Below are positions 25,681 through 39,821 of a stretch of DNA of 53,728 bases, in pieces; position 1 is the first letter of the stretch, and each line of letters begins with the position of its first letter. The stretch is from the sequence record PV733669.1; one strand, 5' to 3'. The notes below the pieces were generated by a model. It ran no database searches. It was not told where the DNA came from and worked only from the letters and a program-made list of their open reading frames with translations. A program made the translations under genes and the position numbers. The stretch comes from Escherichia phage ES2-BCU-3.

Positions 25681-26222
25681 TGAAGATTGCCAAAACGTTC
25701 GGTCCCTTTACTCCTCGCTTACCTGCGAGTGAAAGCGAAGAACATATGGCAAACACCCTCGGCGTCGCCTATCTTGGCGCGCCGGATGGGCGTTGCTGGT
25801 ATGATGTTATCCCTGAACTTGAAACTGAATGTAAAGGGATGCACTTCGTTACTGTGAATGACGATAAAGCTGTTACAGCTGTTTCTGCGGATGCGTCAAC
25901 GTTGTTCCCGTCTGGCTGCTATGTGATGGCTGTTACAGGTGCACCTGACGCTATGGTGCAACGCGTAGGTACGTGGCTGTTTAACGGCAAAGGCTTCGAG
26001 CTCGACCCTTCTGTGGGTATCGAACAAGCAAGACGTCGTAAAGCGTCGGCGCTGGAAGAAGCTACTTTGCAGGTTTCTATTCTGCGCGATGCAGTTGATT
26101 CAGGTAAAGCAACTGACAACGAAAAACGTCTGTTTGAGTTGTGGCGTGATTATCGTATTGCTGTTAACCGCCTTGACATCAACGAAGGTACTGTAATGAA
26201 GTTACCTGCTAAACCGGAGTAA
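25680..26222 (+). CDS. Hypothetical protein (possible tail fibre assembly)
   Basis: TAATG junction with the fibre gene. Confidence 0.4.
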   Translation: MKIAKTFGPFTPRLPASESEEHMANTLGVAYLGAPDGRCWYDVIPELETECKGMHFVTVNDDKAVTAVSADASTLFPSGCYVMAVTGAPDAMVQRVGTWLFNGKGFELDPSVGIEQARRRKASALEEATLQVSILRDAVDSGKATDNEKRLFELWRDYRIAVNRLDINEGTVMKLPAKPE

Positions 26223-26224
26223 CT

Positions 26225-26734
26225 ATGGAACTTGCACAGTTTAATAACTTTACCGAATATCGCCCACAAAGGACGGCTGTCAACTTAGCTAAGTTTAAAG
26301 CTGGCTGCACGTTCATTCGTGATGTAGGCGGTAACGACTGGTACGAGGTTGTAAGGCTAATAGCCCGTCAGTACAAAGACGCATGGTTTATTACTGTGGA
26401 TGAGTACAATGTCGTTGTTGCTGCAACCAAACTGCCTGGTCAGATGTTCCCTGTTAACGCCAGTGTTTATGTTGTTGACGAGGTTCCTGACGTTAAGAAC
26501 TTCTCTGAAGTATGTCATCAATGGCTGTACTTCAATGGCAAGTTTATGCTGCACGCTGACAAGCTAAAGGAAGATGCTTCATACAAACTTAAGTCTGAGT
26601 TAGCTTGGGTTGGTGATGAGATTGATAAGGAAGAGGACCCGACACGCCGTGTGCTGCTGAGTAAATATCGAGCAGCTCTTACAGTTCTTGACATGTCAGC
26701 CGCACCTCATATCGACTGGCCTGAGCGACCATAA
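26225..26734 (+). CDS. Hypothetical protein (possible tail fibre assembly)
   Basis: 169-aa ORF; last gene before a terminator. Confidence 0.4.
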   Translation: MELAQFNNFTEYRPQRTAVNLAKFKAGCTFIRDVGGNDWYEVVRLIARQYKDAWFITVDEYNVVVAATKLPGQMFPVNASVYVVDEVPDVKNFSEVCHQWLYFNGKFMLHADKLKEDASYKLKSELAWVGDEIDKEEDPTRRVLLSKYRAALTVLDMSAAPHIDWPERP

Positions 26735-26742
26735 GTTATTGA

Positions 26743-26780
26743 TGCCAGCAAGCTTAATCAGTTGCTGGCATATTTCTTTT
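26743..26780 (+). terminator. Rho-independent terminator
   Basis: Stem tgccagcaa(26743..26751)/ttgctggca(26762..26770), 10-nt loop, then TATTTCTTTT. Confidence 0.65.
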
Positions 26781-26801
26781 GGCAAACAATCGTGCTATAA
26801 T
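26773..26801 (+). promoter_or_regulatory. Promoter with extended -10 (TGcTATAAT), weak -35
   Basis: TG 26793..26794 and TATAAT 26796..26801 about 30 nt upstream of the holin RBS. Confidence 0.4.
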
Positions 26802-26835
26802 CCACTCTGAGTGTACAACCAACCGGAGCTAAGGG

Positions 26836-27099
26836 ATGCACGACTTATTCGAGCGCTGGTGCTATACAATTGGCCAGTTCATTGCCTGGCTTACAATAAC
26901 AGTTAGTACATTGTCTTTAAGCGATTGGGGTACTATCATTGGTATTATCTCATCCCTTATAATGTTAATTGTTGTTACCTATAACCAGACACGTCGAACC
27001 AAAATTATGTCGGACTATTACAGACGTAAGAAGCCGGTGGAAGATGAGGTAGCTTCCGAAGAAGAGGTGTTGCGTGAGTCTAAAATCAACAGCGACTAA
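26836..27099 (+). CDS. Holin (two predicted TM helices, pinholin-like)
   Basis: 87 aa with two hydrophobic helices (IGQFIAWLTITVSTLSL; WGTIIGIISSLIMLIVV) and charged C-terminus; directly upstream of the lysozyme. Confidence 0.55.
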   Translation: MHDLFERWCYTIGQFIAWLTITVSTLSLSDWGTIIGIISSLIMLIVVTYNQTRRTKIMSDYYRRKKPVEDEVASEEEVLRESKINSD

Positions 27100-27619
27100 A
27101 GGTGGTTGTTCCGTACTTGCTATTATTGGTCTGGTACTATCAATGACCAGTACGCATGTACGGACTAACCAGGAAGGTCTTGAAATAATCGGCAATGCAG
27201 AAGGTTGTATGCGCAACCCATATGTTTGCCCTACTGGCTATCTTACCGTTGGTATTGGTAGCCGCATCTACGAAGATGAACCGGCAGTGCGTAAAGCAGG
27301 TTTGACTGACCAGGAGATTGCTGACCGCTGGGTCAAGAATATCCAGGAAGCTGAGACCTGTGTTAATAACTGGTTCCACGGAAAGGAAATGAACGACAAC
27401 CAGTTTAGCGCAATGACCTCGATGGTATTTAACCACGGTTGCACTAAGTTGCGTCGTAATAAAGATGGTTCTCCAACCCGCATCTATACTGCAGCTCGCT
27501 ACCAGAACTGGACGGAGATGTGTAACCGTATTACTGACTGGGATATGGGCGGCAAGTACAGAGGCTTGACTATACGTAAGCAGAAGGAAAAAGCCTTATG
27601 TCTAAAACCGGTGCAGTAA
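27074..27619 (+). CDS. SAR endolysin (T4-type lysozyme, GH24-like)
   Basis: N-terminal weakly hydrophobic Gly/Ala-rich SAR-like segment (GGCSVLAIIGLVLSM), then EGLEIIGNAEG...YLTVGIG resembling the lysozyme catalytic region; GTG start with GAAGAGG RBS. Confidence 0.7.
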   Translation: MSLKSTATKGGCSVLAIIGLVLSMTSTHVRTNQEGLEIIGNAEGCMRNPYVCPTGYLTVGIGSRIYEDEPAVRKAGLTDQEIADRWVKNIQEAETCVNNWFHGKEMNDNQFSAMTSMVFNHGCTKLRRNKDGSPTRIYTAARYQNWTEMCNRITDWDMGGKYRGLTIRKQKEKALCLKPVQ

Positions 27620-27927
27620 TAATCACGTTGTTCGGAATTGCCATTGTTCTGCTGTGTTTGTGGGTTAAGTCACTCAAGCAGGACATTCAAATCAAGGATG
27701 ATACTATTGAGCAGATTACAAAGGACAACAAAGAATTGTCCACTGCCAATACTGAGCTGCGCGGTCAGATAGCTGTTGAGCGCAATGCTTCTGCTGACAT
27801 GGCCCTTAAGAATAAAGAGCTTGAGGACAAGCTCAAAGAAAGGAAACCAAAGTATGACGCAGCTACAAAGAATGATGCTTGTGCCAATACTAATGCTCCT
27901 GACGGTGTTATCGACCTCATGCAGTAA
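27598..27927 (+). CDS. i-spanin (Rz-like)
   Basis: N-terminal TM helix (AVIITLFGIAIVLLCLWV) then coiled-coil periplasmic domain; overlaps endolysin stop. Confidence 0.5.
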   Translation: MSKTGAVIITLFGIAIVLLCLWVKSLKQDIQIKDDTIEQITKDNKELSTANTELRGQIAVERNASADMALKNKELEDKLKERKPKYDAATKNDACANTNAPDGVIDLMQ

Positions 27928-28132
27928 CAAGCCTGAGGTTATTTACAAGGACAGAATCGTCAAGCAGTACCCGCCTCAGGCTTATCTTGTTACGTGTAAA
28001 AAGCCTGTGTTACAGGGTAAGACCTGGAAGGATATAGGTCAGTTGGCAATAGACAGGGGAGTGGCTCTTGAAGATTGTACTTACAAGATAGATAAGATAA
28101 TCGAATGGAGTAATGGAAAGGGCCCCGAGTAA
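27854..28132 (+). CDS. o-spanin lipoprotein (Rz1-like), overlapping the i-spanin in another frame
   Basis: ATG 27854 with AAGGAAA RBS; signal-like MTQLQRMMLVPILMLLTVLSTSC with Cys as candidate lipobox; begins inside the i-spanin gene. Confidence 0.45.
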   Translation: MTQLQRMMLVPILMLLTVLSTSCSNKPEVIYKDRIVKQYPPQAYLVTCKKPVLQGKTWKDIGQLAIDRGVALEDCTYKIDKIIEWSNGKGPE

Positions 28133-28147
28133 GGGCCCTTTATTTTA
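28118..28147. terminator. Bidirectional rho-independent terminator between convergent genes
   Basis: Stem aaagggccc(28118..28126)/gggcccttt(28133..28141), 6-nt loop, flanked by A- and T-runs; the o-spanin stop codon (28130..28132) lies in the loop. Confidence 0.75.
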
Positions 28148-28369
28148 TCGCTTGGCTTTGCGTTCGTTAAAGTTGGCGCAGTGAGAACAAAGTACTGTAC
28201 CGGCAATCAGCTCACGACGCTTTGACTCAATAGGTTCGCCACACTGATAACAATCAATAGGACTCACACCTTTATATTGCACGCGACTTGCTATTGCTGC
28301 ATCACGTGCAATCTGCTCAGCATCCGATGCCATATCGTTAACGTCTGAAGTGCGGGTAGTCTCAATCAT
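28145..28369 (-). CDS. DksA/TraR-type C4 zinc-finger protein
   Basis: 74 aa with CYQC...(17)...CSHC near the C-terminus, the TraR/DksA zinc-finger spacing. Confidence 0.5.
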   Translation of the reverse strand: MIETTRTSDVNDMASDAEQIARDAAIASRVQYKGVSPIDCYQCGEPIESKRRELIAGTVLCSHCANFNERKAKR

Positions 28370-28641
28370 TTACATTCTTCTTCACAGTAGATAGTTTCTA
28401 ACTCGTCGCATAGCTTCTGTGTCCATGCGTCGTCCTCGCCTCGTATCTCAAAACACAGGGCGGTAATATCATAACCGTTGATACCGCTTTTGTAAAGCTT
28501 TTTGGCAACATCTTCCGGTTCTTCCTGGAATATCCGCATAAACCAGTCCAGTCCCGTCTTACATTCTGAGGCGTCTAGTATCTCCTTCGCCCTTGCCTTA
28601 AGCGTTTCATCTACTGGGTATTCTAAACCTATATTAGACAT
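28366..28641 (-). CDS. Hypothetical protein
   Basis: 91-aa acidic ORF, ATGA-coupled to the downstream gene. Confidence 0.45.
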   Translation of the reverse strand: MSNIGLEYPVDETLKARAKEILDASECKTGLDWFMRIFQEEPEDVAKKLYKSGINGYDITALCFEIRGEDDAWTQKLCDELETIYCEEECK

Positions 28642-28652
28642 ATAATAGACCT

Positions 28653-30623
28653 TTAGTGTGCCTCATCCCAGTTCATACCTATTTGCGCATCTGTAAGAAC
28701 AGGAACACGGAGTGGTAATACAGTTTCCATGACCTTTACAAAGTCTTTAAATCCTGCTTCTGCACTCTTAGTGTTTGGGATAGAGAAGTTTAATTCATCG
28801 TGTACTGTAAGACGTGGAACACCAATCTCGTCAAAGTACCCGTCCTCGTAACCTTTCAGCATACTGGCTTTCATCTGGTCCGCAGAAGAACCTTGAAGGA
28901 CTCGGTTGATTGCTTTGTGGGTGTTAGCCAGTTTAATGTTACCACGGTTGTAGGTAGCAAGAGCTTCATCTTTCGGAAGCGGAGTAAAGCCTTGTCCGCC
29001 CCATTCAGGCACCCACAAATCAAACCACGTTTTGCGGCCCATTATAGTTTCAACGTAACCCTGTGAGTAACATAGCTCTTCATAGTGTTTCATTGTTGCA
29101 CCGATGAATGGTGCACCTTGGTGGTAAGCCGCAAGGATTGGTTCTGCTTCTTCAGGAGTCATAGCCAGCTTACGGGCAAGCGCTTTAAGCATCATGCCAT
29201 ATAACAGACCGAAGTTAATTGTCTTCGCTGGTTTACGTTCTATAATGTGACCTGAGGCTTCCTTAATAATGTCGACCATAACAGCGTGGTAATCTGCTTC
29301 CGGGTTAGCCGCAAAAATTGCTCGTAACTCATCAGCACCCGGTCCGACTGCAAAATGCGCCATGAATCGATACTCGATTTGGGCGTAGTCGGCGGAAGCC
29401 CATCTGTGTCCAAGGTCCGGTACGAAACAAGAACGAACGAGTGGTCCCAATACTTTGTGTCGAGACGGTATATTCTGCAGATTAGGGTCAGATGAGCTAA
29501 ACCGACCACTAACGGTTCCGCCGTCATCACCGCGCATTTGATGGAATTGACCGTGAAGGAAGCCATTTGTATTCATCCCCAAGATGTAGCCACGAATGAA
29601 CGTGGACTGGATTTTCTCATAGGACTTAATCTCGGAAATAAGCTCTGCAAACGGATGATGCAGGCCTGCAAGAAAGTCCGCCGTAAATGATGGGTTACCT
29701 GCTTTAGTTCTGCCATACTCCAGACCTAAATGGTCAAAGGCAAGAGCAAGGTCACTACCCGAGTTGACGTTAACATTGAAACCAAGCTGGTCACGTATCT
29801 GCTTGTGCATCTTCTTAATCTCCTCGGACAATCTGTCGTCGGCGACCTTCGCTGCATCCAAGTCAACACGTACGCCTGCAAAACGCATTTTCAACATTAA
29901 TGGAATGAGCTTGCACTCCATATAAAACACGTCAGTTAAAGCCCAGCGTTGAAGTAAAGGCCACTGGGCTTTCATGATGTGGATTGGTAAGTCCGCATCT
30001 GATTCTGCATAGTAGCCCACAAGACGTGGAGGCGTTTTGTAGATGTACTTACGGGCTTCACCTGTAGGTTTACACCCGTAAGCTTCCGCAATCCACTCAT
30101 ACATTTCTGCTGAGTCTTTGCCTTCACCTACATATTTTCTTCCAAGTCCTTCCAACGCCACACGCGCACCTGGATCGAGAAGAGCTTCTGCATATTGAAC
30201 ATCCATGCACAGTCCTTTGACTTCCACGCCTTCTGCAGAAAGCCAGCCCAGGTCATATGTGATGTTAGCACCGACTTTAGTCTGCTCAGGTCGCGAAAGT
30301 TCCCGTCGTAACCAACCAAATACTTGCTCAACTGGTAGGTTATCCTCTGCTCCGAGTTCGTGTCGTATTGGGTAGTAAGCTTTGAATCCGTTGTCAGTGG
30401 CGACACTAACTCCAACGATATGACCTTCCCGCCTGGCCCAACCAGAACCATTTGTGTCCATCCCTGGGTCCCATGTTTCACAGTCAATACCGATAAGCTT
30501 CGCAGAAGACAAATCCGGGTAATGCGCGCGCGGCCGCCATCCAGTATCCCTGACATGCGGAATAGGACGGTTGATAGGTTTAACATTCTTGACCCCTTCG
30601 AATCCATCAAAAAGAAAACTCAT
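28653..30623 (-). CDS. DNA polymerase I (family A) with 3'-5' exonuclease domain
   Basis: Exo motifs IGIDCETWD, ITYDLGWL, YAESDADL; polymerase motifs A (DYAQIEYR), B (RKPAKTINFGLLYGM), C (VHDELNF). Confidence 0.85.
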   Translation of the reverse strand: MSFLFDGFEGVKNVKPINRPIPHVRDTGWRPRAHYPDLSSAKLIGIDCETWDPGMDTNGSGWARREGHIVGVSVATDNGFKAYYPIRHELGAEDNLPVEQVFGWLRRELSRPEQTKVGANITYDLGWLSAEGVEVKGLCMDVQYAEALLDPGARVALEGLGRKYVGEGKDSAEMYEWIAEAYGCKPTGEARKYIYKTPPRLVGYYAESDADLPIHIMKAQWPLLQRWALTDVFYMECKLIPLMLKMRFAGVRVDLDAAKVADDRLSEEIKKMHKQIRDQLGFNVNVNSGSDLALAFDHLGLEYGRTKAGNPSFTADFLAGLHHPFAELISEIKSYEKIQSTFIRGYILGMNTNGFLHGQFHQMRGDDGGTVSGRFSSSDPNLQNIPSRHKVLGPLVRSCFVPDLGHRWASADYAQIEYRFMAHFAVGPGADELRAIFAANPEADYHAVMVDIIKEASGHIIERKPAKTINFGLLYGMMLKALARKLAMTPEEAEPILAAYHQGAPFIGATMKHYEELCYSQGYVETIMGRKTWFDLWVPEWGGQGFTPLPKDEALATYNRGNIKLANTHKAINRVLQGSSADQMKASMLKGYEDGYFDEIGVPRLTVHDELNFSIPNTKSAEAGFKDFVKVMETVLPLRVPVLTDAQIGMNWDEAH

Positions 30624-31618
30624 TGTCCTGCCCTCACGTACGCAAGTACAACTGTACGCGTGTCGTTCTCCATCTTAAGCGCCTGACTTCCTAGTCCAAT
30701 ACGTTGCATGCCTTTTGCAAGTTTGCTCACTTGACTTATAACACAGTTAAATGGCTTTGTAAACTTAGTTGACTCAAAGTTGATGTCAACAGTCATCTTT
30801 GGAATCACATCGTCTGGAAGGTTAGCCTTTGCCTTGCTTTCGCTTATAACCTGCAAGATTGCTTGACCTTCGTCGTAACCCGTAAGCTGGTCCATAACTT
30901 CCAGGAACTCAGGTGTGATGTCTTCCATGTTCATTTCCATGCTGAAGAACTTGGAGATGTCTGGCCATGTTGCCGCAAGCACAGGTGAATCCATCTGCAC
31001 GTTATCTTCAAACCCGAAGAACATCTGGCCGCGAGTATAACCTACACTTGTGGGTTCCATCTTCAGCTTAACCAAAGCATCAAGCATTGGCTTTGAAATA
31101 GCACATTCAAATTCAAAGTCAACGTTAAGCTTCTCACGAATCATATACTTACCATTTGTCGCGTAAGCATAGCCATCGCGTAAAAGTAATGATGTCGCCC
31201 AGACTTGTGGAGCCTCGCTAGGTACCCATTTTGCGAGAGCTGATAAAACTGGGAGGAGTTCTCCATGTGCGGAGTACCACGTATTGACTGAAGTAACTGG
31301 TGGCAGAACTTCAGATAAGCATTGCATTCTTGTCTTAAGAACTCCTGCTGTGACAGTGAGGTTCCCTCCGGCGGTGATATTGAAAGTAATCTCTTTAGTC
31401 CGTGCAGCATTAACGGCCTTGCGAAATGATTCAGCATCAACTTGTATGTCTGGGAAACCTGGCGATGGTACTCGTAATAATACGTTCTTGTAGAACGAGT
31501 GCATGACTTCCTTGTCCACCCATAGCTTGCCCATAAGACCGCTATCATTGTACTTGACAGGACGAACCCTTTCAACGATTTTCTGTAAGGCTTTGGTGTC
31601 ATAGTTAAATTTGCCCAT
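30620..31618 (-). CDS. Hypothetical replication-associated protein
   Basis: 332-aa ORF ATGA-coupled to the polymerase gene; no motif recognised. Confidence 0.5.
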   Translation of the reverse strand: MGKFNYDTKALQKIVERVRPVKYNDSGLMGKLWVDKEVMHSFYKNVLLRVPSPGFPDIQVDAESFRKAVNAARTKEITFNITAGGNLTVTAGVLKTRMQCLSEVLPPVTSVNTWYSAHGELLPVLSALAKWVPSEAPQVWATSLLLRDGYAYATNGKYMIREKLNVDFEFECAISKPMLDALVKLKMEPTSVGYTRGQMFFGFEDNVQMDSPVLAATWPDISKFFSMEMNMEDITPEFLEVMDQLTGYDEGQAILQVISESKAKANLPDDVIPKMTVDINFESTKFTKPFNCVISQVSKLAKGMQRIGLGSQALKMENDTRTVVLAYVRAGQ

Positions 31619-31650
31619 AGTTAAAAGGGCGACCTAAGCCGCCCGTCTCC

Positions 31651-32535
31651 TTATACAGCCATTGGTAACTTAATGTTTGCCATCGGCGTATATTCCGCCA
31701 TCAGGCCGTTCAAATCATCAACGCGGAAGTTGAAGATTGATTTGTCGTAGATTGCGTTGATTGATGGTCGACGACGTGCGTTAGTGTCATACATCTCATC
31801 AGCGTTCTCTACGATACGCTCAAGAAACTGCTTTGAAGCGTCAACATGGTTTTCGTAGATATGGTAATCACCCAGGGTAACAGTCAGGTCACCAATGGCA
31901 CAACCTACTTCAGCCGCCAACATAATCTGCAGTAACTGATGCAGGAGAATGTCATGTGGCAGGCCAAGAATCACGTCAGCGCTACGCATATGGAACATCA
32001 GCTCAAGCTCATTTGCCCCATTAACAAAACACTGGAAGCCATGATAGCAAGGCGGTAGGGCCATGCTCGGCATCTCTTGTGGGTTCCATGCCGTTACATA
32101 CATACGGCGGTCTGTAGGATTGGTCTTCAGCGTATGCACCAGCTCTTGCAACTGGTCTGTCAGCTCGCCGTTCTTCCAGTACTCTTTAACCCATTGAGCA
32201 CCATATACAGGACCTAAGTCACGGTTATCAGGTGTGCCCCAACGTTTGTTTGCGTCCTGCAGGTTAGCTTCCCACCAGTTACAACCCAACATCTTCAAAG
32301 TATCGACGTTGGTAATGCCGTTGATAAAGCAATAAAGCTCAGCACCTACAGCTTTGATGTTAACAGGCTTGAAGATTGGAACCATCAGCTTGTTGTCTTT
32401 AAATGCCAGTTTGAAAGCAGTGCCAAACAGGCGGCGAGTACCGGTACCGGTGCGGTCACCTGACTGCTCACCCTTATTCAGGATGGTAGAAATCAGGTCG
32501 TCGTACAGTGCGTCAACAGTTTGGTATGTTTTCAT
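31651..32535 (-). CDS. thyA: Thymidylate synthase (ThyA family)
   Basis: Motifs DLGPVYGAQW, RSADVILGLP, DYHIYENH (Asn retained, dUMP-type) and active-site Cys in LPPCY (canonical PCH). Co-occurring DHFR favours a true synthase. Confidence 0.75.
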   Translation of the reverse strand: MKTYQTVDALYDDLISTILNKGEQSGDRTGTGTRRLFGTAFKLAFKDNKLMVPIFKPVNIKAVGAELYCFINGITNVDTLKMLGCNWWEANLQDANKRWGTPDNRDLGPVYGAQWVKEYWKNGELTDQLQELVHTLKTNPTDRRMYVTAWNPQEMPSMALPPCYHGFQCFVNGANELELMFHMRSADVILGLPHDILLHQLLQIMLAAEVGCAIGDLTVTLGDYHIYENHVDASKQFLERIVENADEMYDTNARRRPSINAIYDKSIFNFRVDDLNGLMAEYTPMANIKLPMAV

Positions 32536-33128
32536 TACAGCAGTTCCAGTTGGTTAGGGTTAGTGTGTGCATTGATAATTGCCTGGATGTCAGGTTTGAC
32601 CCAACCTTCTGGCTTAACAATGTCCTGGCCTGATTTGTGCTTACTGTTGCTTGCATCAGGTTTAGCACGTTCTTTCGCCATGTTGGCTTTCTGTACAGCG
32701 TCCCATGCATCATCCAGCGGCCAGTTGTTTGCAGCACACCAGTTGATAAGATGGATGATAAGCTGTGCCAGGCGGTCGCAGTGAGTGTCTTCGGTATCTT
32801 TAACATATACACGAAGACCCTTGGCATCAAACTTCTCCATCCAGCTGCATGGGTCAATGAAATGAATAGGGTATTCAAATTCATTTGAGAACCAGGTAGT
32901 CTGGTCATACAGGTAGAGAGTACCTGCAGCGATATAGATAAGGTCAACAATGCCGTCCAGGAATTCAGCTTTGTCGCCTTCCTTGATGGCTTTCTCAATC
33001 TCATCCATCTCTTCGATGAGACGGTCATAGCGAAGTTTGAACTCAGGCTTACCGCCTTCACTGATAGGTTTGAGGTCAAACTTCTGGTGGAAAGCAGTTA
33101 CACCTGCAGCAATTTTACTGAATCGCAT
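32535..33128 (-). CDS. MazG-like nucleoside triphosphate pyrophosphohydrolase (putative)
   Basis: EEMDEIEKAIKEGDKAEFLDGIVDLIY resembles the MazG/all-alpha NTP-PPase acidic helix; ATG at 33128 with AAGGAG 7 nt upstream (track ORF extends to 33200); TAATG junction with thyA. Confidence 0.45.
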   Translation of the reverse strand: MRFSKIAAGVTAFHQKFDLKPISEGGKPEFKLRYDRLIEEMDEIEKAIKEGDKAEFLDGIVDLIYIAAGTLYLYDQTTWFSNEFEYPIHFIDPCSWMEKFDAKGLRVYVKDTEDTHCDRLAQLIIHLINWCAANNWPLDDAWDAVQKANMAKERAKPDASNSKHKSGQDIVKPEGWVKPDIQAIINAHTNPNQLELL

Positions 33129-33513
33129 CACGGAGCTCCTTACATACAGTTTCGATGAATTTACGTTTGGTCTCAGTAGACCAGATAATATGACGGGCAC
33201 GTTCTACAACGTCGTAACGGTCTTTACCCACAGGAAAGGGAACAATGAAAAGGCCAGTACGGGAGATGCGCTTGATATACGGAAACTTGCAGCGCATGGT
33301 TGTTTCAAATGCTGTGAAGGCACGTTGTACGCCAGCTGTGAATTTTACCTTATCAAACTCATATTCAATGTCTTTGGCATACTGACACACTTTGGCGAAA
33401 GCATCTGCAGGCAGATAGTCTTCACGACCAGTGTTATTGACAAAATCTATTTGACCCTGCAGACGCAGAATCCAGATGTGGTAATATGATTCGGCAACAC
33501 GTTGTAAGTTCAT
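33115..33513 (-). CDS. Hypothetical protein
   Basis: 132-aa ORF with AGGAGAG RBS and its own promoter. Confidence 0.5.
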   Translation of the reverse strand: MNLQRVAESYYHIWILRLQGQIDFVNNTGREDYLPADAFAKVCQYAKDIEYEFDKVKFTAGVQRAFTAFETTMRCKFPYIKRISRTGLFIVPFPVGKDRYDVVERARHIIWSTETKRKFIETVCKELRDAIQ

Positions 33514-33541
33514 TGTACTCTCTCCTAATGAAATATAACTT

Positions 33542-33570
33542 ATTATACTACATCACTCTCTAGGGGTAAA
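33542..33570 (-). promoter_or_regulatory. Sigma70-like promoter (TTTACC-17-TATAAT), minus strand
   Basis: Reverse complement of ggtaaa(33565..33570) and attata(33542..33547). Confidence 0.5.
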
Positions 33571-33600
33571 GCACTTTTTTATATTCGGGTAAAAGAAAAA

Positions 33601-33624
33601 GGACCAGCGCAAACTGGTCCTTTT
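33601..33624 (-). terminator. Rho-independent terminator (works on either strand)
   Basis: Stem ggaccag(33601..33607)/ctggtcc(33614..33620), loop cgcaaa; minus-strand reading is followed by TTTTTCTTTT. Confidence 0.7.
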
Positions 33625-34087
33625 GGCAGGGCTGGATGATTACACAAGGAGTAGAAACAATGCAACTGTCAACGTCATGCACTTCCGGTACACTTGCTGT
33701 GCGCTCTCCTCGGCGAAGTATATAGCGTTACACTTATCACAAGGATTAAGAGAAGAGCACACAGCAAGTAACCAGCTTAGTTGTGGTGTTTCAGCGACCT
33801 GGTGTTATTGTGGATAACCTGCCATCCCGCGAGGATGTCAAAAAGGAAAATGCCAAAACACCACAACTAAATTGGTTGACCGCCATCTACATCCGGCGCC
33901 AGGGTCAAGGTAGCGAGCCAATACCCCTTATGGCGTCCTGGGACTCAAACCCAGGCATCATGGCATTTCCCAAATCTCGGTCAGCGAGCAGAATTGAACT
34001 GCATTCACTGGACACCCTCACTGAACACCAACGCACCAGGCTTAATCAGTTTGTTGAAAAGGAGAGTTGTAAGGATGTCCATTGAAT

Positions 34088-34105
34088 GCACCTCCGAAGA
34101 GGTGC
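34088..34105 (-). other. Stable UUCG-tetraloop hairpin just 3' of the 156-aa gene
   Basis: Minus strand reads GCACCUC-UUCG-GAGGUGC; no U-tract follows, so more likely an RNA-stability or processing element than a terminator. Confidence 0.5.
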
Positions 34106-34123
34106 GTTCGTGATCAGCGCCGA

Positions 34124-34594
34124 TTATTCTGCGTCGTTGTCAACGTCAGTTTCGGTATTACCGCCAGCCAGTGCAGCCGCTTCAGCTTTAGCAGCTTCGG
34201 CTTTCTGACGAGCTTTTTCAGCTTTCTCTTCAGCTTTGCGAATCTGCTCAGCAGCTTTCGCTTCGGCTTTTTCAGCTTTAGCTTTAGCACGCGCTTCAGC
34301 TTTCAGACGCTTCTCTTCGGCTTTAGCCGCATCACGTTCTGCTTTCGCAGTATCGATGCGTTTAGCCAGAACTTTACCGGTCGCTTTACGCCAGTAGGTC
34401 AGCTGAGAAGAAACGGTGCCGCGGGACATTTCGGTTTGTGCAACCACTTTGTCCATAACGTCAGAGCTGGATTCGCCTGCTTCGTGTGCCTGGTCAGCCA
34501 GGTCCCAAACAAAACGCGCACCAGTGCCAGCTGCCGGGTACATAACGCCGTTTACTTCTTCTTTACCAGATACAAAAGTCAGTTTCTCGCTCAT
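34124..34594 (-). CDS. Ala/Lys/Glu-rich low-complexity protein
   Basis: 156 aa; C-terminal half is near-repetitive KAE/AKA helix (AKAEEKRLKAEARAKAKAEKAEAKAAEQ...); GAGGA RBS; own promoter. Confidence 0.55.
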   Translation of the reverse strand: MSEKLTFVSGKEEVNGVMYPAAGTGARFVWDLADQAHEAGESSSDVMDKVVAQTEMSRGTVSSQLTYWRKATGKVLAKRIDTAKAERDAAKAEEKRLKAEARAKAKAEKAEAKAAEQIRKAEEKAEKARQKAEAAKAEAAALAGGNTETDVDNDAE

Positions 34595-34639
34595 AATTTT
34601 TTCCTCGTCTACAGGGCTTAATGTTTGTTTACGTGGTTA

Positions 34640-34668
34640 AGTATAACCCTTTTAAAAAAGTATGTACA
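34640..34668 (-). promoter_or_regulatory. Early-type promoter (GTGTACATA -35 region, TATACT -10), minus strand
   Basis: Minus strand reads GTGTACATAC-N15-TATACT; tgtaca at 34663..34668, agtata at 34640..34645. Confidence 0.5.
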
Positions 34669-34697
34669 CATCTTTTTTAAACTTTTTTCATACGCGT

Positions 34698-34931
34698 CTA
34701 AAAAGGAATGTCATACTCAAAATCTTTACAACCGGATGCTTGTATCTTCGGCGGCGGTAACTTGCCTCCGAACCGTGTACAAACATCTTCCTTATAATAG
34801 AGGCACTGCACACAACTCATATCCTGTAAAAAGATGATGAGTTGTCTACGAGCTTCTGGCGGCAACGTCTTTGCGATTGCTGCCACTTTATTGAATTCAT
34901 CTTGGTTGGCCAAAACCATTCCCCCAGTCAT
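34698..34931 (-). CDS. Small Cys-rich protein
   Basis: 77 aa with CVQC...C...C spacing suggesting a zinc-binding fold; overlaps the 3' end of the helicase gene by 35 nt. Confidence 0.4.
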   Translation of the reverse strand: MTGGMVLANQDEFNKVAAIAKTLPPEARRQLIIFLQDMSCVQCLYYKEDVCTRFGGKLPPPKIQASGCKDFEYDIPF

Positions 34932-36570
34932 AGTTCATGATTTGTGGGTAAGGGCGTTTAATCCATACCTTCAGTTGCTTAGGTACAGCAAGCTCACCCT
35001 TACGTTTGATAAACTCGTCACATGTTGATGGAGGTTCAGTGCCTGCAGCATTCTTCCACCAAGCATCTGCCATATTCTTAGCAGACCCATAAGCTTCAAC
35101 GTTGACCCATGTTGTGTATATCTCCAGGTTAGAATAGTATATTACCTTTATACTATCGGGTCTTCCTGGTTTCTGAAACAACGAATAGTTTACCAGCGTA
35201 ACTGATTTGTCTACAACACGAAGCTGTCCATTCGTCATTACTTCTTCTTCCGAAGATTCCATTGCAATAGCAGGACCTGACGTCTGGAATGTGAATTCAT
35301 GCCCGCAAGCAGGATATACACCGTTTTCATCAGGCTTACTTCCTTTAGCAGGATGCTTACAGAACTTGGCTGCAAATCCACTTACCTGATGGCAGATAGG
35401 ACATTCCTTGCCACCAACAGTCTTTGGTCCGCCTTTCTTTTTCTTCTTGCCAAGACGCGGAGGTACTGCAGGGTCGTCGATAGGACCAAGGTCAATAGTG
35501 TTAGATGTAAAGTCCATTACCAGGCAGTTCTCTTTACCCGGCGCAGTACGTAAACCACGACCCAGAATCTGTACCCACAAAGCGACAGAAGTGGATGGTC
35601 TGAGAATCCCGAGCATATCAATCTCTGGATAGTCAAACCCTGTTGTCAATACGTTTACGTTAACACAGACACGAGCTCTACCACTTGTAAACTCATCAAG
35701 CAGATGCTCTCGCTCTTTCTTACTTAACCCGCCATGTATGACAACTGTCTTCCATCCGCGTATCTCGAACTCATCGGCTACTTCATACGCATGGTCAACA
35801 CTTACTGCAAACACAAGTATGTGATGCCTGTCACTACCATAGTGCATCATCTCACGAATGGCTGCACCGGTTATGTCTGCCTGATTGACTGCTGCTTCAA
35901 GTTCGGAAGGTATGTAATCACCCATACGTGTTCCGACATTCGAAGTGTCAATCTTAGTTAATACTTTCTTATTGACAAGGCGTGACAAGAAACCTTCATT
36001 CACCAGACGAGTGAATGAGTCAGGTGTTGTCAGGTCATAACAAATGTCTGTAAAGATACCGCAATCAAGTAAGTGACCACCGGCTAAACGATACGGAGTT
36101 GCTGTAAGACCAGTAACCTTAATCTTCGGGTTAACTTCCTTGAAGTGCGCAATAACCTTACGATAAGTTGTCTCGGACTTCTCTGGAACAAGATGAGCTT
36201 CGTCAATGAAGATAAGGTTGAACTTACCAGCTTCTTCCAGGTTGTTGATGATGGACTGAATTGATGCTACAACAATACGACCTGATAAGTCTTTACGACC
36301 TACAGATGATGAGTAGATTGAAACTGGTGCATGTGGCCAGTGACGAGTAATAGCCTTGGCATCCTGCTCAACAAGCTCTTTAACGTGTGTCAGGATAAGA
36401 ATACGTTGACGAGGATATTGAGTAAGAATATCCTTCATAAGCATACCGAGTACAGGAGACTTACCTGACCCAGTAGGCATGACAATCAATGGATTGCCTG
36501 AATGTGAATTGAAGTAAGACCACCAAGCGGTGACTGCTTCTTGTTGATACCAGCGAGCTTCAAAAGCCAT
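34897..36570 (-). CDS. DEAD/DEAH-box (SF2) DNA helicase
   Basis: Motif I MPTGSGKS, II FIDEAH, III LTATP, VI QILGRGLR; C-terminal Cys pairs (CPICH...C) suggest a zinc finger. Confidence 0.8.
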   Translation of the reverse strand: MAFEARWYQQEAVTAWWSYFNSHSGNPLIVMPTGSGKSPVLGMLMKDILTQYPRQRILILTHVKELVEQDAKAITRHWPHAPVSIYSSSVGRKDLSGRIVVASIQSIINNLEEAGKFNLIFIDEAHLVPEKSETTYRKVIAHFKEVNPKIKVTGLTATPYRLAGGHLLDCGIFTDICYDLTTPDSFTRLVNEGFLSRLVNKKVLTKIDTSNVGTRMGDYIPSELEAAVNQADITGAAIREMMHYGSDRHHILVFAVSVDHAYEVADEFEIRGWKTVVIHGGLSKKEREHLLDEFTSGRARVCVNVNVLTTGFDYPEIDMLGILRPSTSVALWVQILGRGLRTAPGKENCLVMDFTSNTIDLGPIDDPAVPPRLGKKKKKGGPKTVGGKECPICHQVSGFAAKFCKHPAKGSKPDENGVYPACGHEFTFQTSGPAIAMESSEEEVMTNGQLRVVDKSVTLVNYSLFQKPGRPDSIKVIYYSNLEIYTTWVNVEAYGSAKNMADAWWKNAAGTEPPSTCDEFIKRKGELAVPKQLKVWIKRPYPQIMNYDWGNGFGQPR

Positions 36571-36628
36571 TTAACGTCTCCTCACTTAATATAGACATTA
36601 TATCACTTCCATGTGATAACGTACACTT

Positions 36629-37504
36629 TTACTTTAAGGAGAAGGTGACTGGTTCTTCACTTTGTGGGAAGACGTCTGCAGGTTTATAATCCCCGCATGC
36701 TGCCAGTTGTGTTTGAATTGTTTCAAGGTTATGGTTATGCTTTTTACAGTACCATACCTTGCCCTGTACAGGAGATGAATATGCACAGGTCCGGCAGTTC
36801 TTATCTGGTGCAGCACCTTTGTGGCACAGATGATGGTATTCACACATACCTACACGACACTGCCACCACAACGGCGATTCAGAAAGCTTCGGCATATCAA
36901 GACCAGACTCAGCAGTAATCACGGCTTCTGCTTTTGACAGCTGCATATCACTTTCTAACAGGTCAAGAGTAATCTCTTCATAATACATCTCATCGGTGTT
37001 CTTGTTGATTGCGATGTATAACGCCCTGTCAAGCTTCAGCTCTCGCATATAAACCTGCATCTGAGAATAGTGAACAGGCTTACTTGCTTTAACAGACTTG
37101 TGCTTAATCAGCTCTTTGAATGACTTGTCGCCGTGTGTCTTAAACTCGGTTAAAGCCCATACGCCATTGAACTTGATTACACAGTCACACGAACCAGAAA
37201 AGATGTCGTTGAATTTACTGATTCGCCATTGCTTACCCGTCTTAGGGTTTACAGGCAATACTTCTTCACAAACAGAGCGAAGCCAACCGATAATACGGTC
37301 TTCTTCCAGCGTACCACGGTTAAACAATCGTAACTGCTTAGCTGTGAACTTCTCTTTGTATGACCAGTGCAATACGTGCCACAGGTAACGGTAGCACTCG
37401 TGTCCAATTTGTGAAGCGCCTAAATGTCCGCGACGTTCTTCCTTCTCGTGGGCTTCTACAATAGCAACATCAATACGTTTGCCAATCTTATCCAGCAATC
37501 CCAT
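36629..37504 (-). CDS. PD-(D/E)XK nuclease with Cys cluster (Cas4/RecB-like, putative)
   Basis: D...EFK-type core (DCVIKFNGVWALTEFK), an N-terminal Cys (HECY) and C-terminal C-x4-C-x5-C cluster plus CRTC...C...H; start placed at ATG 37504 with GGAG RBS (alternative ATG 37540; track 37627). Confidence 0.45.
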   Translation of the reverse strand: MGLLDKIGKRIDVAIVEAHEKEERRGHLGASQIGHECYRYLWHVLHWSYKEKFTAKQLRLFNRGTLEEDRIIGWLRSVCEEVLPVNPKTGKQWRISKFNDIFSGSCDCVIKFNGVWALTEFKTHGDKSFKELIKHKSVKASKPVHYSQMQVYMRELKLDRALYIAINKNTDEMYYEEITLDLLESDMQLSKAEAVITAESGLDMPKLSESPLWWQCRVGMCEYHHLCHKGAAPDKNCRTCAYSSPVQGKVWYCKKHNHNLETIQTQLAACGDYKPADVFPQSEEPVTFSLK

Positions 37505-37505
37505 T

Positions 37506-37970
37506 CTAGTCTCCTGCAAGGTCTCCAGGTTCAAACTCATCGTAGATAACTCCTGCTCCCACAACCAGGTGAGAGACGGCGTTTGCCATGCTGTCTTTCC
37601 ACTTGGATTGCTTAGCCTTGTGTACAAAGGCTACAACACGTCTGACGTGTAAATTGGCAGTAAGCATCTTCGCACAATGTTCGCACGGAGGATATGTGAT
37701 GTATACAGTAACCGGGCCTAACGAGGAAGCGTCTAACTCCTTCCTTATATTAGCTAGTGCATTTACCTCACTATGTATAGTGAGAGCGTTCTTAAGCTCA
37801 TTAGGCACCTCCTTTAAGGCGTCTAACTGCTCAGGCAAACCGTTATAACCTGTTGATATAATTCGCTTTTTGGCATCGACGATTACACATCCAACCTGGC
37901 GCTTAGGGTCCTTAGACCAGCTAGCAATCTCCTGAGCCACTCGTAAAAAACGCTTATCCCACTTATCCAT
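37506..37970 (-). CDS. dCMP deaminase
   Basis: Zinc-binding motifs HSEVNA and PCEHC; ATG at 37970 with GGAGGA RBS (track ORF starts at TTG 37988). Confidence 0.75.
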   Translation of the reverse strand: MDKWDKRFLRVAQEIASWSKDPKRQVGCVIVDAKKRIISTGYNGLPEQLDALKEVPNELKNALTIHSEVNALANIRKELDASSLGPVTVYITYPPCEHCAKMLTANLHVRRVVAFVHKAKQSKWKDSMANAVSHLVVGAGVIYDEFEPGDLAGD

Positions 37971-37981
37971 AGTATCCTCCG

Positions 37982-38010
37982 CATACAAAAACAGGAGCCG
38001 AAGCTCCTGT
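37982..38010 (-). terminator. Rho-independent terminator with UUCG tetraloop, minus strand
   Basis: Minus strand reads ACAGGAGC-UUCG-GCUCCUGU followed by UUUUUGUAU; stems at 37991..37998 and 38003..38010. Confidence 0.6.
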
Positions 38011-38030
38011 TTGATTATACCTGGGTTAGA

Positions 38031-38570: not shown

Positions 38571-38639
38571 GGGTTTTACCTTTTCAATAGTTTAAGTTTT
38601 GGTTTAACGCTTTACCGGCAGCGTTCGGCCGTGGAACAC

Positions 38640-38669
38640 ATTATACGCCACTTTTTATCGCGGCGTAAA
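38640..38669 (-). promoter_or_regulatory. Sigma70-like promoter (TTTACG-18-TATAAT), minus strand
   Basis: Reverse complement of cgtaaa(38664..38669) and attata(38640..38645). Confidence 0.45.
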
Positions 38670-38674
38670 CGTTT

Positions 38675-39795: not shown

Positions 39796-39821
39796 GGCTC
39801 GCTCCTCATGTGTATAGGAGT

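What the first reader, a model, noticed from the sequence alone, without database searches (positions are those of the whole stretch)
31651..32535. ThyA-family enzyme with atypical active-site context (PCY rather than PCH) in a five-gene nucleotide-metabolism set
The phage carries a ThyA-like gene, MazG-like pyrophosphohydrolase (32535..33128), dCMP deaminase (37506..37970), DHFR (53274..344) and a kinase-like protein (341..841). The ThyA homologue keeps the dUMP-specifying Asn (YENH) but has LPPCY where thymidylate synthases have PCH. Enzymes of this fold in other phages are dUMP or dCMP hydroxymethylases feeding DNA hypermodification. DHFR argues for an ordinary synthase, but the deviation deserves a check.
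Basis: partly seen in the sequence, partly recalled or inferred. Interest (0 to 1): 0.45.

Follow-up and report, generated by a model that had tools for sequence, protein, structure and literature searches.

The report
Mislabelled thymidylate synthase; probable dCMP methylase
This phage's "thymidylate synthase" carries the one active-site change (Asn177 to Asp) known to switch such enzymes from uracil to cytosine nucleotides, so it most likely makes 5-methyl-dCMP and, with its partner genes, replaces cytosine by 5-methylcytosine in the phage DNA, which would explain a published but unexplained restriction resistance in a 98%-identical phage.

Summary
The ORF is real (minus strand, 294 aa, full-length TS fold) and does have PCY instead of PCH. 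The "YENH" Asn is E. coli N211. The base-specifying Asn177 is Asp here (LGLPHD, codon 31951-31953). Asp177 is the signature of dCMP-specific enzymes. Everything needed for reductive methyl transfer is canonical: Cys146, Leu143 (acidic in both characterised hydroxymethylases), Asp169 and the TS C-terminus. The MazG-like gene overlaps the TS start by one base. A dCMP-family deaminase, DHFR and a kinase complete the same gene set as in Xp12 and PaMx74, where 5mC fully replaces C. There is no second TS, glycosyltransferase, TET or DNA methyltransferase. Phage S144 (98% identical) has DNA resistant to all seven G/C-site enzymes tested; its authors found no responsible gene. In a nested sub-clade that reverted to Asn177, the deaminase is missing from its slot and the MazG catalytic motifs have decayed. 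Best explanation: a dCMP C5-methyltransferase feeding 5mC DNA, with thymidine nucleotides made by deaminating 5-methyl-dC nucleotides. It is a new member of a known kind, from a lineage separate from Xp12's, and so TS-like that it passes the curated ThyA model. Product and DNA content are inferred.

The parts
31651..32535 (-). ThyA-family enzyme, 294 aa; predicted dCMP C5-methyltransferase (5-methyl-dCMP synthase)
   Evidence: ORF. PF00303 E=7e-68. TIGR03284 191.7 bits against cutoff 108.35. 37% identical to E. coli ThyA, 27% to the Xp12 enzyme. The only TS-family gene in the window.
31951..31953 (-). Codon GAC = Asp195, equivalent to E. coli Asn177 (pyrimidine-specificity residue)
   Evidence: Alignments; coordinates. 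Asn to Asp at this position switches TS from dUMP to dCMP (PMC8670742; PMC13326640).
32041..32058 (-). Leu160-Pro-Pro-Cys163-Tyr164-His165 = E. coli L143...C146-H147-A148 (catalytic Cys; Leu143 kept; His147 to Tyr)
   Evidence: Residue 143 is Asp in T4 gp42 and SPO1 gp29 (both hydroxymethylases) and non-acidic in methyl-forming enzymes.
32535..33128 (-). MazG-like/PRA-PH all-alpha NTP pyrophosphohydrolase, 197 aa; inferred dCTPase. Its TAA stop shares one base with the TS ATG (TAATG).
   Evidence: Pfam PF01503 E=1.5e-7. PHROG 671. Junction sequence. Partial homology to the gene immediately upstream of the TS homologue in Xp12 and PaMx74. Acidic motifs kept in Asp177 phages and lost in Asn177 revertants.
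37506..37970 (-). dCMP/dCTP-deaminase-family protein, 154 aa; inferred 5-methyl-dC nucleotide deaminase making dT nucleotides
   Evidence: PF00383 E=9e-23. 35-37% identical to the Xp12 and PaMx74 deaminases. Closest solved structures are 2W4L and the PBCV-1 dCMP/dCTP deaminase 7FH4. Missing from the same slot in the Asn177 contig.
53274..53728 (+). Dihydrofolate reductase, 5' part (continues at 128..344 once the 127-bp assembly overlap is removed)
128..344 (+). Dihydrofolate reductase, 3' part
   Evidence: The joined product is 223 aa and nearly identical to ZCSE2 gp71. Pfam DHFR_1 29.6 bits against cutoff 25.
341..841 (+). P-loop nucleotide kinase, 166 aa; inferred (5-methyl-)dNMP kinase. Its start overlaps the DHFR stop codon.
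   Evidence: PHROG 761 E=1.8e-22. No Pfam, NCBIfam or PDB match. An orthologue lies in the replication module of L006.
31627..31644 (-). Hairpin followed by a T-run just after the TS stop codon (possible operon end; weak evidence)
   Evidence: The number of such sites in the region is no higher than in shuffled sequence.

Best explanation
The gene encodes a deoxycytidylate C5-methyltransferase (5-methyl-dCMP synthase), not a thymidylate synthase. Proposed pathway: the translationally coupled MazG-like pyrophosphohydrolase converts dCTP to dCMP, which supplies substrate and depletes dCTP. The ThyA homologue methylates dCMP with methylene-tetrahydrofolate by ordinary TS chemistry (Cys163 attack, then hydride transfer from folate), giving 5-methyl-dCMP and dihydrofolate. 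The phage DHFR regenerates tetrahydrofolate. The phage kinase and host kinases raise 5-methyl-dCMP to the triphosphate, and the phage Pol A builds it into DNA in place of C. The dCMP-family deaminase converts part of the 5-methyl-dC nucleotide pool into dT nucleotides, so no separate TS is needed. Shown here: Asp at position 177, a canonical remainder of the active site, the gene set, its parallel in Xp12 and PaMx74, and the co-loss pattern in revertants. Taken from the literature: the effect of Asn177 to Asp, the activity of related enzymes, and the restriction resistance of S144 DNA. Inferred: the product of this enzyme, the substrates of MazG, deaminase and kinase, and the presence and extent of 5mC in virions.
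For: (1) Asp at E. coli position 177 in every alignment. Asn to Asp converts canonical TS into a dCMP methylase, and Asp177 marks cytosine-modified viral contigs (PMC8670742; PMC13326640). (2) Methyl rather than another product: Leu143, Trp80, Tyr94, Glu58, Arg166, Ser167, Asp169 and the TS C-terminus IKLPMAV are all canonical. Both characterised hydroxymethylases, T4 gp42 and SPO1 gp29, have Asp143 and lack that C-terminus. The Asp169-to-Asn marker of 5-hydroxy-dCMP synthases is absent. (3) The same four-gene set (NTP-PPase, TS-Asp177, deaminase, DHFR) forms one operon in Xp12 and in PaMx74, both cited as having 5mC fully replacing C. TS + deaminase + PRA-PH + Pol A is the typical neighbourhood in C-modified contigs, and 5 of 7 such TS homologues made 5mdCMP in vivo (bioRxiv 10.1101/2024.12.05.627091). 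(4) MazG and TS overlap by one base. (5) There is one TS-family gene only, and no known glycosyltransferase, TET or DNA-methyltransferase family among about 40 ORFs scanned. (6) S144 is 98% identical. Its DNA was not cut by XhoI, EheI, Bsp120I, Cfr42I, NotI, MauBI or SspDI but was cut by SspI and PacI, on three hosts, and the gene responsible was not found (PMC7432712). All these sites exist in the window. Xp12 5mC DNA resists 89.9% of type II enzymes. (7) Natural experiment: an Asn177 sub-clade is monophyletic in 100/100 bootstraps and nested in the Asp177 clade, since Asp177-only monophyly appears in 1/100. On its one long contig the deaminase is missing from its slot, and in three contigs the MazG homologue has lost its acidic motifs.
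Against: No biochemical or nucleoside data exist for this enzyme or this phage, so the product is inferred. The enzyme is only 27% identical to the proven Xp12 methylase. Its Trp79/Tyr147/His148/His176 substitutions lie in or near the folate and pyrimidine pockets and have unknown effect. The residue-143 rule rests on few characterised enzymes, and Xp12 itself has Gln or Asn there next to an insertion. The S144 digests fit 5hmC or a guanine modification equally well. The revertant evidence is one evolutionary event, and only 20.9 kb of the 61-kb revertant contig could be inspected. Many phage ORFs have no assignable function, so a further modification step cannot be excluded. From general knowledge: fully 5mC-substituted DNA should be attacked by McrBC, McrA and Mrr, which many E. 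coli strains carry, yet relatives of this phage plate on E. coli.
Confidence: 0.62

Rival explanations
1. Ordinary thymidylate synthase (dUMP to dTMP), as annotated in all deposited genomes. In this reading dCMP deaminase supplies dUMP and DHFR recycles folate, as in T4.
For: Full-length TS fold. Passes the curated ThyA equivalog TIGR03284 at 191.7 bits against 108.35. Closest non-clade relatives are cellular TSs at 37-44% identity. The set TS + deaminase + DHFR + kinase is also the classical dTMP set; the S144 authors read it that way.
Against: Asn177 is Asp in 29 of 33 clade clusters, while all 86 cellular TSs retrieved have Asn. The single Asn-to-Asp change switches canonical TS to dCMP. 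S144 DNA is modified at G/C-containing sites. Where the clade reverts to Asn177 the deaminase is lost, which is the opposite of what a dCMP to dUMP to dTMP route predicts.
Confidence: 0.06
2. dCMP hydroxymethylase: it makes 5-hydroxymethyl-dCMP, giving 5hmC DNA, possibly further decorated by an unrecognised enzyme.
For: Asp177 is shared with T4 gp42. S144 restriction resistance is equally compatible: T4gt 5hmC DNA resists 81.9% of type II enzymes. Several ORFs of unknown function remain. Tyr147, His148 and His176 are unexplained changes near the reaction centre.
Against: Leu143 and the TS C-terminal tail are retained, whereas both characterised hydroxymethylases have Asp143 and lack the tail. 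DHFR is unnecessary for a hydroxymethylase, which releases tetrahydrofolate (established TS and hydroxymethylase chemistry), and there is no second TS to justify it. No glycosyltransferase or other 5hmC-tailoring family was found. Deaminating 5hmC nucleotides would put 5hmU into DNA. Asn177 revertants keep the same scaffold, which makes sense for a dTMP-forming enzyme.
Confidence: 0.17
3. The enzyme makes 5-methyl-dCMP only as an intermediate on a dCMP to 5mdCMP to dTMP route. 5mC is not incorporated, or only partly, and the S144 modification comes from some other gene.
For: Xp12 infection uses such a deamination route to thymidylate (Kuo et al. 1982 and Wang & Ehrlich 1982, as cited). The deaminase co-varies with Asp177.
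Against: This would be a pointless detour when the host TS and the deaminase are available. An active-looking MazG-like enzyme, coupled to the TS and lost together with Asp177, suggests exclusion of dCTP. S144 DNA is blocked at every G/C site tested, and no other modification gene was found (and the family scans).
Confidence: 0.1
4. The S144 restriction resistance reflects a guanine modification (for example a 7-deazaguanine) or a host- or phage-encoded DNA methyltransferase, unrelated to this gene.
For: The digests cannot tell C from G modification. The S144 authors speculated about ORF63 and the AEV23 authors about a weakly matching methyltransferase-like ORF.
Against: No DpdA, Que or methyltransferase family was detected in the ORFs scanned. 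The ORF63 homologue (40327-41646) has no Pfam hit. Resistance was the same on three hosts from two genera. A site-specific methyltransferase would not block seven unrelated sites.
Confidence: 0.05

Closest known systems
Xanthomonas phage Xp12 / Pseudomonas phage PaMx74 deoxycytidylate methyltransferase module (TS homologue + NTP pyrophosphohydrolase + dCMP-family deaminase + DHFR; 5mC fully replaces C)
   Same: Asp177, Cys146 and Asp169. An NTP-PPase gene lies immediately upstream of the TS homologue. A dCMP-family deaminase (35-37% identical) and DHFR are present. There is no second TS.
   Different: Only 27% identity between the TS homologues; the window enzyme is closer to cellular ThyA at 37-44%. 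It keeps the canonical MALPPC segment, Gln151 and the TS C-terminus, which Xp12 and PaMx74 lack. It has Tyr147/His148/His176 where they have Pro147/Thr or Ala148/Tyr176. The genes are dispersed over three loci of a myovirus genome rather than one operon of a siphovirus. It has an extra phage kinase.
E. coli ThyA N177D / L. casei TS N229D engineered mutants (dCMP methylases)
   Same: An otherwise canonical TS with Asp at the specificity position. This is the closest functional analogue, in effect a natural version of the mutant (literature as cited).
   Different: This is a natural enzyme with five further fixed substitutions (I79W, H147Y, A148H, Q165M, F176H) that may tune activity on dCMP. 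These were not tested.
T4 gp42 dCMP hydroxymethylase (PDB 1B5E)
   Same: TS fold, Cys146, Asp177 and Met165.
   Different: 24% identity. gp42 has Asp143, lacks the TS C-terminus and works with glucosyltransferases. The window enzyme has Leu143 and the C-terminus, and the genome has no glycosyltransferase.
RB69 gp48 / DLP3 gp80 5-hydroxy-dCMP synthases (flavin-dependent TS homologues)
   Same: TS fold and Asp177.
   Different: Their diagnostic Asp169-to-Asn and L143E substitutions are absent here; the window has Asp187 (= D169) and Leu160 (= L143).
Environmental viral TS homologues with the signature L143/H147/Y148/Q165/Y176/D177 (IMG/VR)
   Same: A canonical-looking TS with Leu143, Asp177 and a TS-type C-terminus.
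   Different: A separate lineage at 35-42% identity. Tyr and His next to the catalytic Cys are in the opposite order (PCHY against PCYH), and Gln165 is kept. No window-like deaminase or MazG gene was detected in their flanks.

Membership tests
Canonical thymidylate synthase ThyA (EC 2.1.1.45) | TS fold / profile match above the curated threshold | tested here: met
   PF00303 229 bits; TIGR03284 equivalog 191.7 bits against cutoff 108.35.
Canonical thymidylate synthase ThyA (EC 2.1.1.45) | Asn177 (E. coli numbering), which hydrogen-bonds uracil O4/N3 and specifies dUMP | tested here: not met
   Asp195 (GAC, 31951-31953) at this position in all alignments.
Canonical thymidylate synthase ThyA (EC 2.1.1.45) | His147 next to the catalytic Cys; Phe176 and Ile79 in the folate pocket | tested here: not met
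   Tyr, His and Trp respectively. All 86 cellular TSs retrieved have H147/F176/I79.
Canonical thymidylate synthase ThyA (EC 2.1.1.45) | Converts dUMP to dTMP | not testable with these tools
   Needs an enzyme assay or thyA complementation.
Deoxycytidylate C5-methyltransferase (Xp12-type 5-methyl-dCMP synthase) | TS fold with the catalytic Cys and Asp at position 177 | tested here: met
   Cys163 and Asp195.
Deoxycytidylate C5-methyltransferase (Xp12-type 5-methyl-dCMP synthase) | Non-acidic residue at 143 and Asp169 retained (methyl product, folate chemistry) | tested here: met
   Leu160 and Asp187. The hydroxymethylases gp42 and gp29 have Asp143. The Asp169-to-Asn marker is absent.
Deoxycytidylate C5-methyltransferase (Xp12-type 5-methyl-dCMP synthase) | Genomic association with an NTP pyrophosphohydrolase, a dCMP-family deaminase and DHFR, with no second TS | tested here: met
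   Searches compared with Xp12 and PaMx74. This neighbourhood is described.
Deoxycytidylate C5-methyltransferase (Xp12-type 5-methyl-dCMP synthase) | Orthology with the Xp12/PaMx74 enzyme | tested here: not met
   27% identity. It lies closer to cellular ThyA, and the Xp12 position in the NJ tree is unresolved. So this is the same predicted function in a different lineage.
Deoxycytidylate C5-methyltransferase (Xp12-type 5-methyl-dCMP synthase) | Produces 5-methyl-dCMP; virion DNA contains 5mC in place of C | not testable with these tools
   Indirect support only: S144 DNA resists all G/C-site enzymes tested.
dCMP hydroxymethylase (T4 gp42-type) | Acidic residue at position 143, which admits water to the methylene intermediate | tested here: not met
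   Leu160.
dCMP hydroxymethylase (T4 gp42-type) | Lacks the TS C-terminal tail; accompanied by 5hmC-tailoring enzymes such as glycosyltransferases | tested here: not met
   The C-terminus IKLPMAV is present. No glycosyltransferase family was found among the scanned ORFs. ORFs of unknown function remain.
5-hydroxy-dCMP synthase (RB69 gp48-type) | Asp169 replaced by Asn | tested here: not met
   Asp187 (GAC, 31975-31977).
5mC-selective cytidine deaminase (mSCD-type) - for the 37506..37970 gene | Preference for 5-methyl-dCTP/5mC over dCMP/dCTP | not testable with these tools
   The trait is reported as polyphyletic with no defined sequence signature. Only family membership (PF00383) and linkage to an Asp177 TS could be shown.

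The most novel reading that the evidence does not exclude
The window clade is an independent conversion of a canonical ThyA into a dCMP methylase, convergent with the Xp12 type. It makes Rosemountvirus and Loughboroughvirus, enterobacterial myoviruses used for biocontrol, phages with 5mC-substituted DNA. The nested Asn177 revertants would then show that a phage lineage can switch back from 5mC DNA to canonical DNA by a single-codon change together with loss of the deaminase and decay of the dCTPase. A corollary is that these phages must carry an unrecognised way round McrBC, McrA and Mrr.
Probability: 0.4. Interest if true: 0.65.

Novelty: new member of a known kind. Interest (0 to 1): 0.5.

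Why it matters
About 60 deposited genomes of Rosemountvirus- and Loughboroughvirus-type phages label this gene "thymidylate synthase". Many of these phages are being developed for Salmonella, E. coli or Klebsiella biocontrol and therapy. Curated profile models will keep giving that label, because the enzyme scores above the ThyA equivalog cutoff. If the enzyme is a dCMP methylase, several things follow. It supplies the missing gene for the cytosine modification reported in S144. It contradicts a recent statement that these genera lack the nucleotide-modifying repertoire seen in the Xp12 family. It predicts resistance to most type II restriction systems and sensitivity to type IV systems, which bears on host range and cocktail design. 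It also bears on sequencing and cloning of these phages. The Asn177 revertants provide a natural genetic argument that the TS, the MazG-like enzyme and the deaminase work as one pathway. Finally, a near-canonical TS that acts on dCMP would be a convenient scaffold for studying how few changes re-target this enzyme.

Tried and rejected
(1) orf267 (838..1641) is coupled to DHFR and the kinase, so I considered it as an extra modification enzyme. Its homologues are confined to this phage group. The AlphaFold model (pLDDT 77, pTM 0.28) is a small N-terminal domain followed by two very long helices, which is not enzyme-like. Rejected; no fold search was run.

The result is inconclusive, because the known deaminases on the control contigs L005 and L006 were not recovered either.

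(3) The IMG/VR scan with the single protein found only four isolate relatives plus one distant TS (31% identity). With the clade alignment, one generic pattern flooded the result with other viral TSs. That was useful as a panel but gave no additional clade members.

(4) Hit H44 (SBSphiJ4) was fetched as a presumed SPO1-like hydroxymethylase. It is a Bastillevirinae phage, so it was not used, and SPO1 gp29 was fetched instead.

(5) No supplementary sequences of the experimentally tested TS homologues or deaminases are held for the preprint, so no direct match could be made.

(6) The papers on vB_SenM-1, the SPLA phages, ZCSE2 and AEV23 contain no restriction or nucleoside data.

(7) Dinucleotide statistics and restriction-site counts in the window gave no usable signal of 5mC.

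(8) The promoter and terminator scans found no more sites than in shuffled sequence. Only the hairpin after the TS stop codon is mentioned, as weak evidence.

(9) tblastn found no similarity between the window Pol A and the PaMx74 polymerase at E below 1e-4. So the shared part is the nucleotide module, not the replisome.

(10) Structure prediction of the TS itself was not run, because the tools return no coordinates and a fold search would only return TS.
Full report
WHAT IS THERE. The window is essentially a complete, circularly permuted phage genome. It is 98% identical over the 12-kb stretch compared (28000-40000) to the Loughboroughvirus phages ZCSE2 and S144, and about 78% identical to Rosemountvirus phages. 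Its two ends repeat 127 bp exactly, which is an assembly overlap. The flagged ORF is real. It runs from 31651 to 32535 on the minus strand, starts with ATG and encodes 294 aa. It matches the thymidylate-synthase family end to end (PF00303, E=7e-68). Its best solved relatives are bacterial, protozoan and human TSs (E down to 5e-47).

CHECKING THE OBSERVATION. 'LPPCY' is correct. Cys163-Tyr164-His165 align with E. coli Cys146-His147-Ala148. The claim that the enzyme 'keeps the dUMP-specifying Asn (YENH)' is wrong. That Asn (residue 229) aligns with E. coli Asn211. The specificity residue Asn177 lies in the LG(L/V)PFN motif, which here reads LGLPHD, so it is Asp195 (GAC, 31951-31953). HMMER alignments to three solved TSs, two MAFFT alignments and BLASTP all agree. 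My reference sequences for E. coli ThyA and T4 gp42 were checked as identical to PDB entries. The four companion genes are confirmed. One correction applies: DHFR is 53274..53728 joined to 128..344 once the duplicated 127 bp is removed.

HOW SPECIFIC THE DEVIATION IS. Among the 120 best hits in the 5.8-billion-protein collection, 33 clusters (52-100% identity, on phage-sized contigs of 45-61 kb) form the window's clade. The hit list then drops sharply to cellular TSs at 37-44%. Relative to E. coli, the clade carries I79W, H147Y, A148H, Q165M, F176H and N177D. It keeps Arg21, Glu58, Trp80, Tyr94, Arg126/127, Leu143, Cys146, Gln151, Arg166, Ser167, Asp169, His207, Tyr209 and the C-terminal Ala-Val. 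All 86 cellular TSs have I79/H147/F176/N177. The clade is monophyletic in 99 of 100 bootstraps.

WHAT THE RESIDUES MEAN. Published work gives a residue code, in E. coli numbering:
- Position 177: Asn specifies dUMP and Asp specifies dCMP. The single Asn-to-Asp mutation turns E. coli or L. casei TS into a dCMP methylase. Positions 177 and 147 are the two positions that differ most between cytosine-modified and unmodified viral contigs (PMC8670742).
- Position 143: a bulky hydrophobic residue goes with a methyl product and an acidic residue with a hydroxymethyl product (PMC13326640).
- Position 169: Asp-to-Asn marks the flavin-dependent 5-hydroxy-dCMP synthases.

I re-tested the 143 rule on characterised enzymes. 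T4 gp42 (dCMP hydroxymethylase) and SPO1 gp29 (dUMP hydroxymethylase) both have Asp143. E. coli ThyA and PaMx74 have Leu, and Xp12 has Gln or Asn beside a four-residue insertion. The window enzyme has the canonical MAL-PPC segment, Asp169 and the TS C-terminal tail IKLPMAV, which both hydroxymethylases lack. It therefore reads as a natural 'N177D' thymidylate synthase, and the predicted product is 5-methyl-dCMP.

It is so TS-like that it scores 191.7 bits against NCBI's curated ThyA equivalog (cutoff 108.35). The proven Xp12 methylase (99.6) and T4 gp42 (30.6) fall below that cutoff. This explains why every deposited genome calls the gene thymidylate synthase.

CONTEXT.
- The MazG-like gene ends in TAA, which overlaps the TS start codon by one base (TAATG).
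- The window contains no other TS-family gene.
- About 40 non-structural ORFs scanned with Pfam and/or PHROGs show no ThyX, glycosyltransferase, TET/JBP, DNA methyltransferase or deazaguanine genes.
- Xp12, the classic phage with 5mC fully replacing C, has the operon MazG-like/'HAD' hydrolase, TS homologue (Asp177), dCMP deaminase, DHFR.
- PaMx74 has NTP pyrophosphohydrolase, thyA, cd, frd.
- The window's TS, MazG-like protein, deaminase and DHFR each find their counterpart there: 27%; 33-49% over two short segments; 35-37%; and about 34% over part of the protein.
- An NEB preprint reports that in C-modified metavirome contigs 70% of dCMP-deaminase genes lie within 3 kb of a TS homologue. PRA-PH and DNA pol A are the other commonly co-localised domains. 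Five of seven such TS homologues, and the Xp12 enzyme, made 5mdCMP in vivo. One associated deaminase converts 5-methyl-dCTP, but hardly dCTP, to dTTP.
- The window has this arrangement: Pol A 28653-30623, clamp, TS, PRA-PH, helicase, exonuclease, deaminase. Here the deaminase lies about 5 kb from the TS, rather than within the 3 kb used in that study.

EXPERIMENTAL LINK. The S144 paper (S144 is 98% identical) reports that S144 DNA, grown on three hosts, was not cut by XhoI, EheI, Bsp120I, Cfr42I, NotI, MauBI or SspDI although sites are present. It was cut by the A/T-only enzymes SspI and PacI. The authors concluded that cytosine may be modified and stated that they found no gene to explain it. 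They described this ORF as an ordinary TS (PMC7432712). All those sites occur in the window. Xp12 5mC DNA resists 89.9% of type II enzymes. I found no paper in the searchable library that connects these genera with 5mC. [quoted passage not shown]

A NATURAL EXPERIMENT. Four clade clusters (P0015, P0019, P0021, P0026) have Asn177 while keeping Trp79/Tyr147/His148/Met165/His176. They are monophyletic (100/100) and nested within the Asp177 clade; the Asp177 members are monophyletic on their own in only 1 of 100 replicates. Asn there is therefore a reversal.

Synteny is conserved across the clade: AAA_24, DUF669, [deaminase], exonuclease, helicase, then MazG-like, TS, clamp, Pol A. Two distant Asp177 contigs (L005, L006) have the deaminase in its slot and a full-length MazG-like gene. 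The Asn177 contig L003 has only 63 nt between DUF669 and the exonuclease, and no deaminase anywhere in the 20.9 kb available. In all three Asn177 contigs where the upstream gene is visible (L003, L091, L094), the MazG homologue is conserved but has lost the RLxEExDE and DxxVDxxY acidic motifs and the ANMAKERA...SKH block. Every Asp177 phage keeps these.

So Asp177, an active-looking pyrophosphohydrolase and the deaminase are kept together and lost together. That is expected if they form one pathway: dCTP to dCMP to 5mdCMP, with 5-methyl-dC nucleotides deaminated to dT nucleotides. It is the opposite of what the ordinary dCMP to dUMP to dTMP route predicts. The revertants also show that Tyr147, His148 and His176 are compatible with a uracil-specific enzyme. 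There are caveats. This is one evolutionary event. The rest of the 61-kb contig could not be inspected. An attempt to do so indirectly was inconclusive.

MECHANISM AND CONFIDENCE. Shown: Asp177, the canonical methyl-transfer apparatus, a single TS gene, coupling with MazG, the Xp12/PaMx74-like gene set, and the co-loss pattern. From the literature: the effect of Asn177 to Asp, the activities of related enzymes and the S144 digests. Inferred: the product, the substrates of the MazG-like enzyme, deaminase and kinase, and the extent of 5mC in virions. My rough estimates are:
- about 0.9 that the substrate is dCMP;
- about 0.75 that the product is methyl rather than hydroxymethyl;
- about 0.85 that the product reaches the DNA.

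Overall confidence is about 0.6. The main rival is a dCMP hydroxymethylase (0.17). An ordinary TS is unlikely (0.06).

COMPARISON AND NOVELTY. In function this is the known Xp12-type 5mC pathway. As a protein it is not an Xp12 orthologue. It is 27% identical, keeps features that the Xp12 enzyme has lost, and sits next to cellular ThyA. A further, abundant environmental viral lineage also combines Leu143 with Asp177 but has the motif PCHY, Gln165 and Tyr176, so TS-like Asp177 enzymes are diverse. I classify the finding as a new member of a known kind. It has practical interest (systematic misannotation in therapeutic phages, and an explanation for a published phenotype) and some evolutionary interest (the revertants).

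Noticed in passing
window 1..127 and 53602..53728: The two ends of the window are an exact 127-bp duplicate, typical of a circular contig from a k=127 assembly. The true genome length is 53,601 bp. Genes that cross the junction, such as DHFR, appear frame-shifted if the ends are simply joined.
   Followed up: yes
P0015, P0019, P0021, P0026; loci L003, L004, L091-L094: A metagenome-only sub-clade of the same phage group has reverted Asp177 to Asn. It also carries R127K and P144E, and W83K in three of the four clusters. It lacks the deaminase gene in its slot, and its MazG homologue has lost the catalytic acidic motifs. No cultured isolate exists (best match 60% identity).
   Followed up: yes
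L013-L090 (about 52 IMG/VR loci, e.g. L013:10001-10798): An abundant environmental viral TS lineage has the signature L143/C146/H147/Y148/Q165/D169/Y176/D177 and a TS-like C-terminus. No window- or Xp12-like deaminase or MazG gene was detected in its flanks. It is presumably another family of dCMP-modifying enzymes.
   Followed up: partly
P0034 / L006:10001-10876: A 45%-identical relative on a 30-kb contig has an intermediate signature (W79, H147, Y148, M165, N176, D177). It has the same synteny, including PRA-PH, deaminase and kinase.
   Followed up: partly
window 838..1641 (+): A 267-aa ORF overlaps the kinase stop codon by 4 nt and is confined to this phage group. AlphaFold predicts a small N-terminal domain followed by two very long helices (coiled coil). 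One database record calls a homologue 'UDP-glucose 4-epimerase', which nothing here supports.
   Followed up: partly
window 40327..41646 (-): A 439-aa protein is the homologue of S144 ORF63, which its authors suspected to be a BAH-domain methyltransferase. It has no Pfam hit and matches only PHROGs of unknown function.
   Followed up: partly
L002:46207-46980 (Xp12): The Xp12 gene annotated 'hydrolase (HAD superfamily)' immediately upstream of its TS homologue is 65% identical to the PaMx74 'nucleotide pyrophosphohydrolase'. It shares MazG-like segments with the window's MazG, so the HAD label looks wrong.
   Followed up: partly
window 32138..32277 (residues 87-133 of the TS): Compared with E. 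coli ThyA, the enzyme has an 8-residue insertion after Trp80 (WWEANLQDANKRW), resembling the longer loop of eukaryotic TSs (IWDAN...). Because of this, the alignment at E. coli Trp83 is ambiguous.
   Followed up: no
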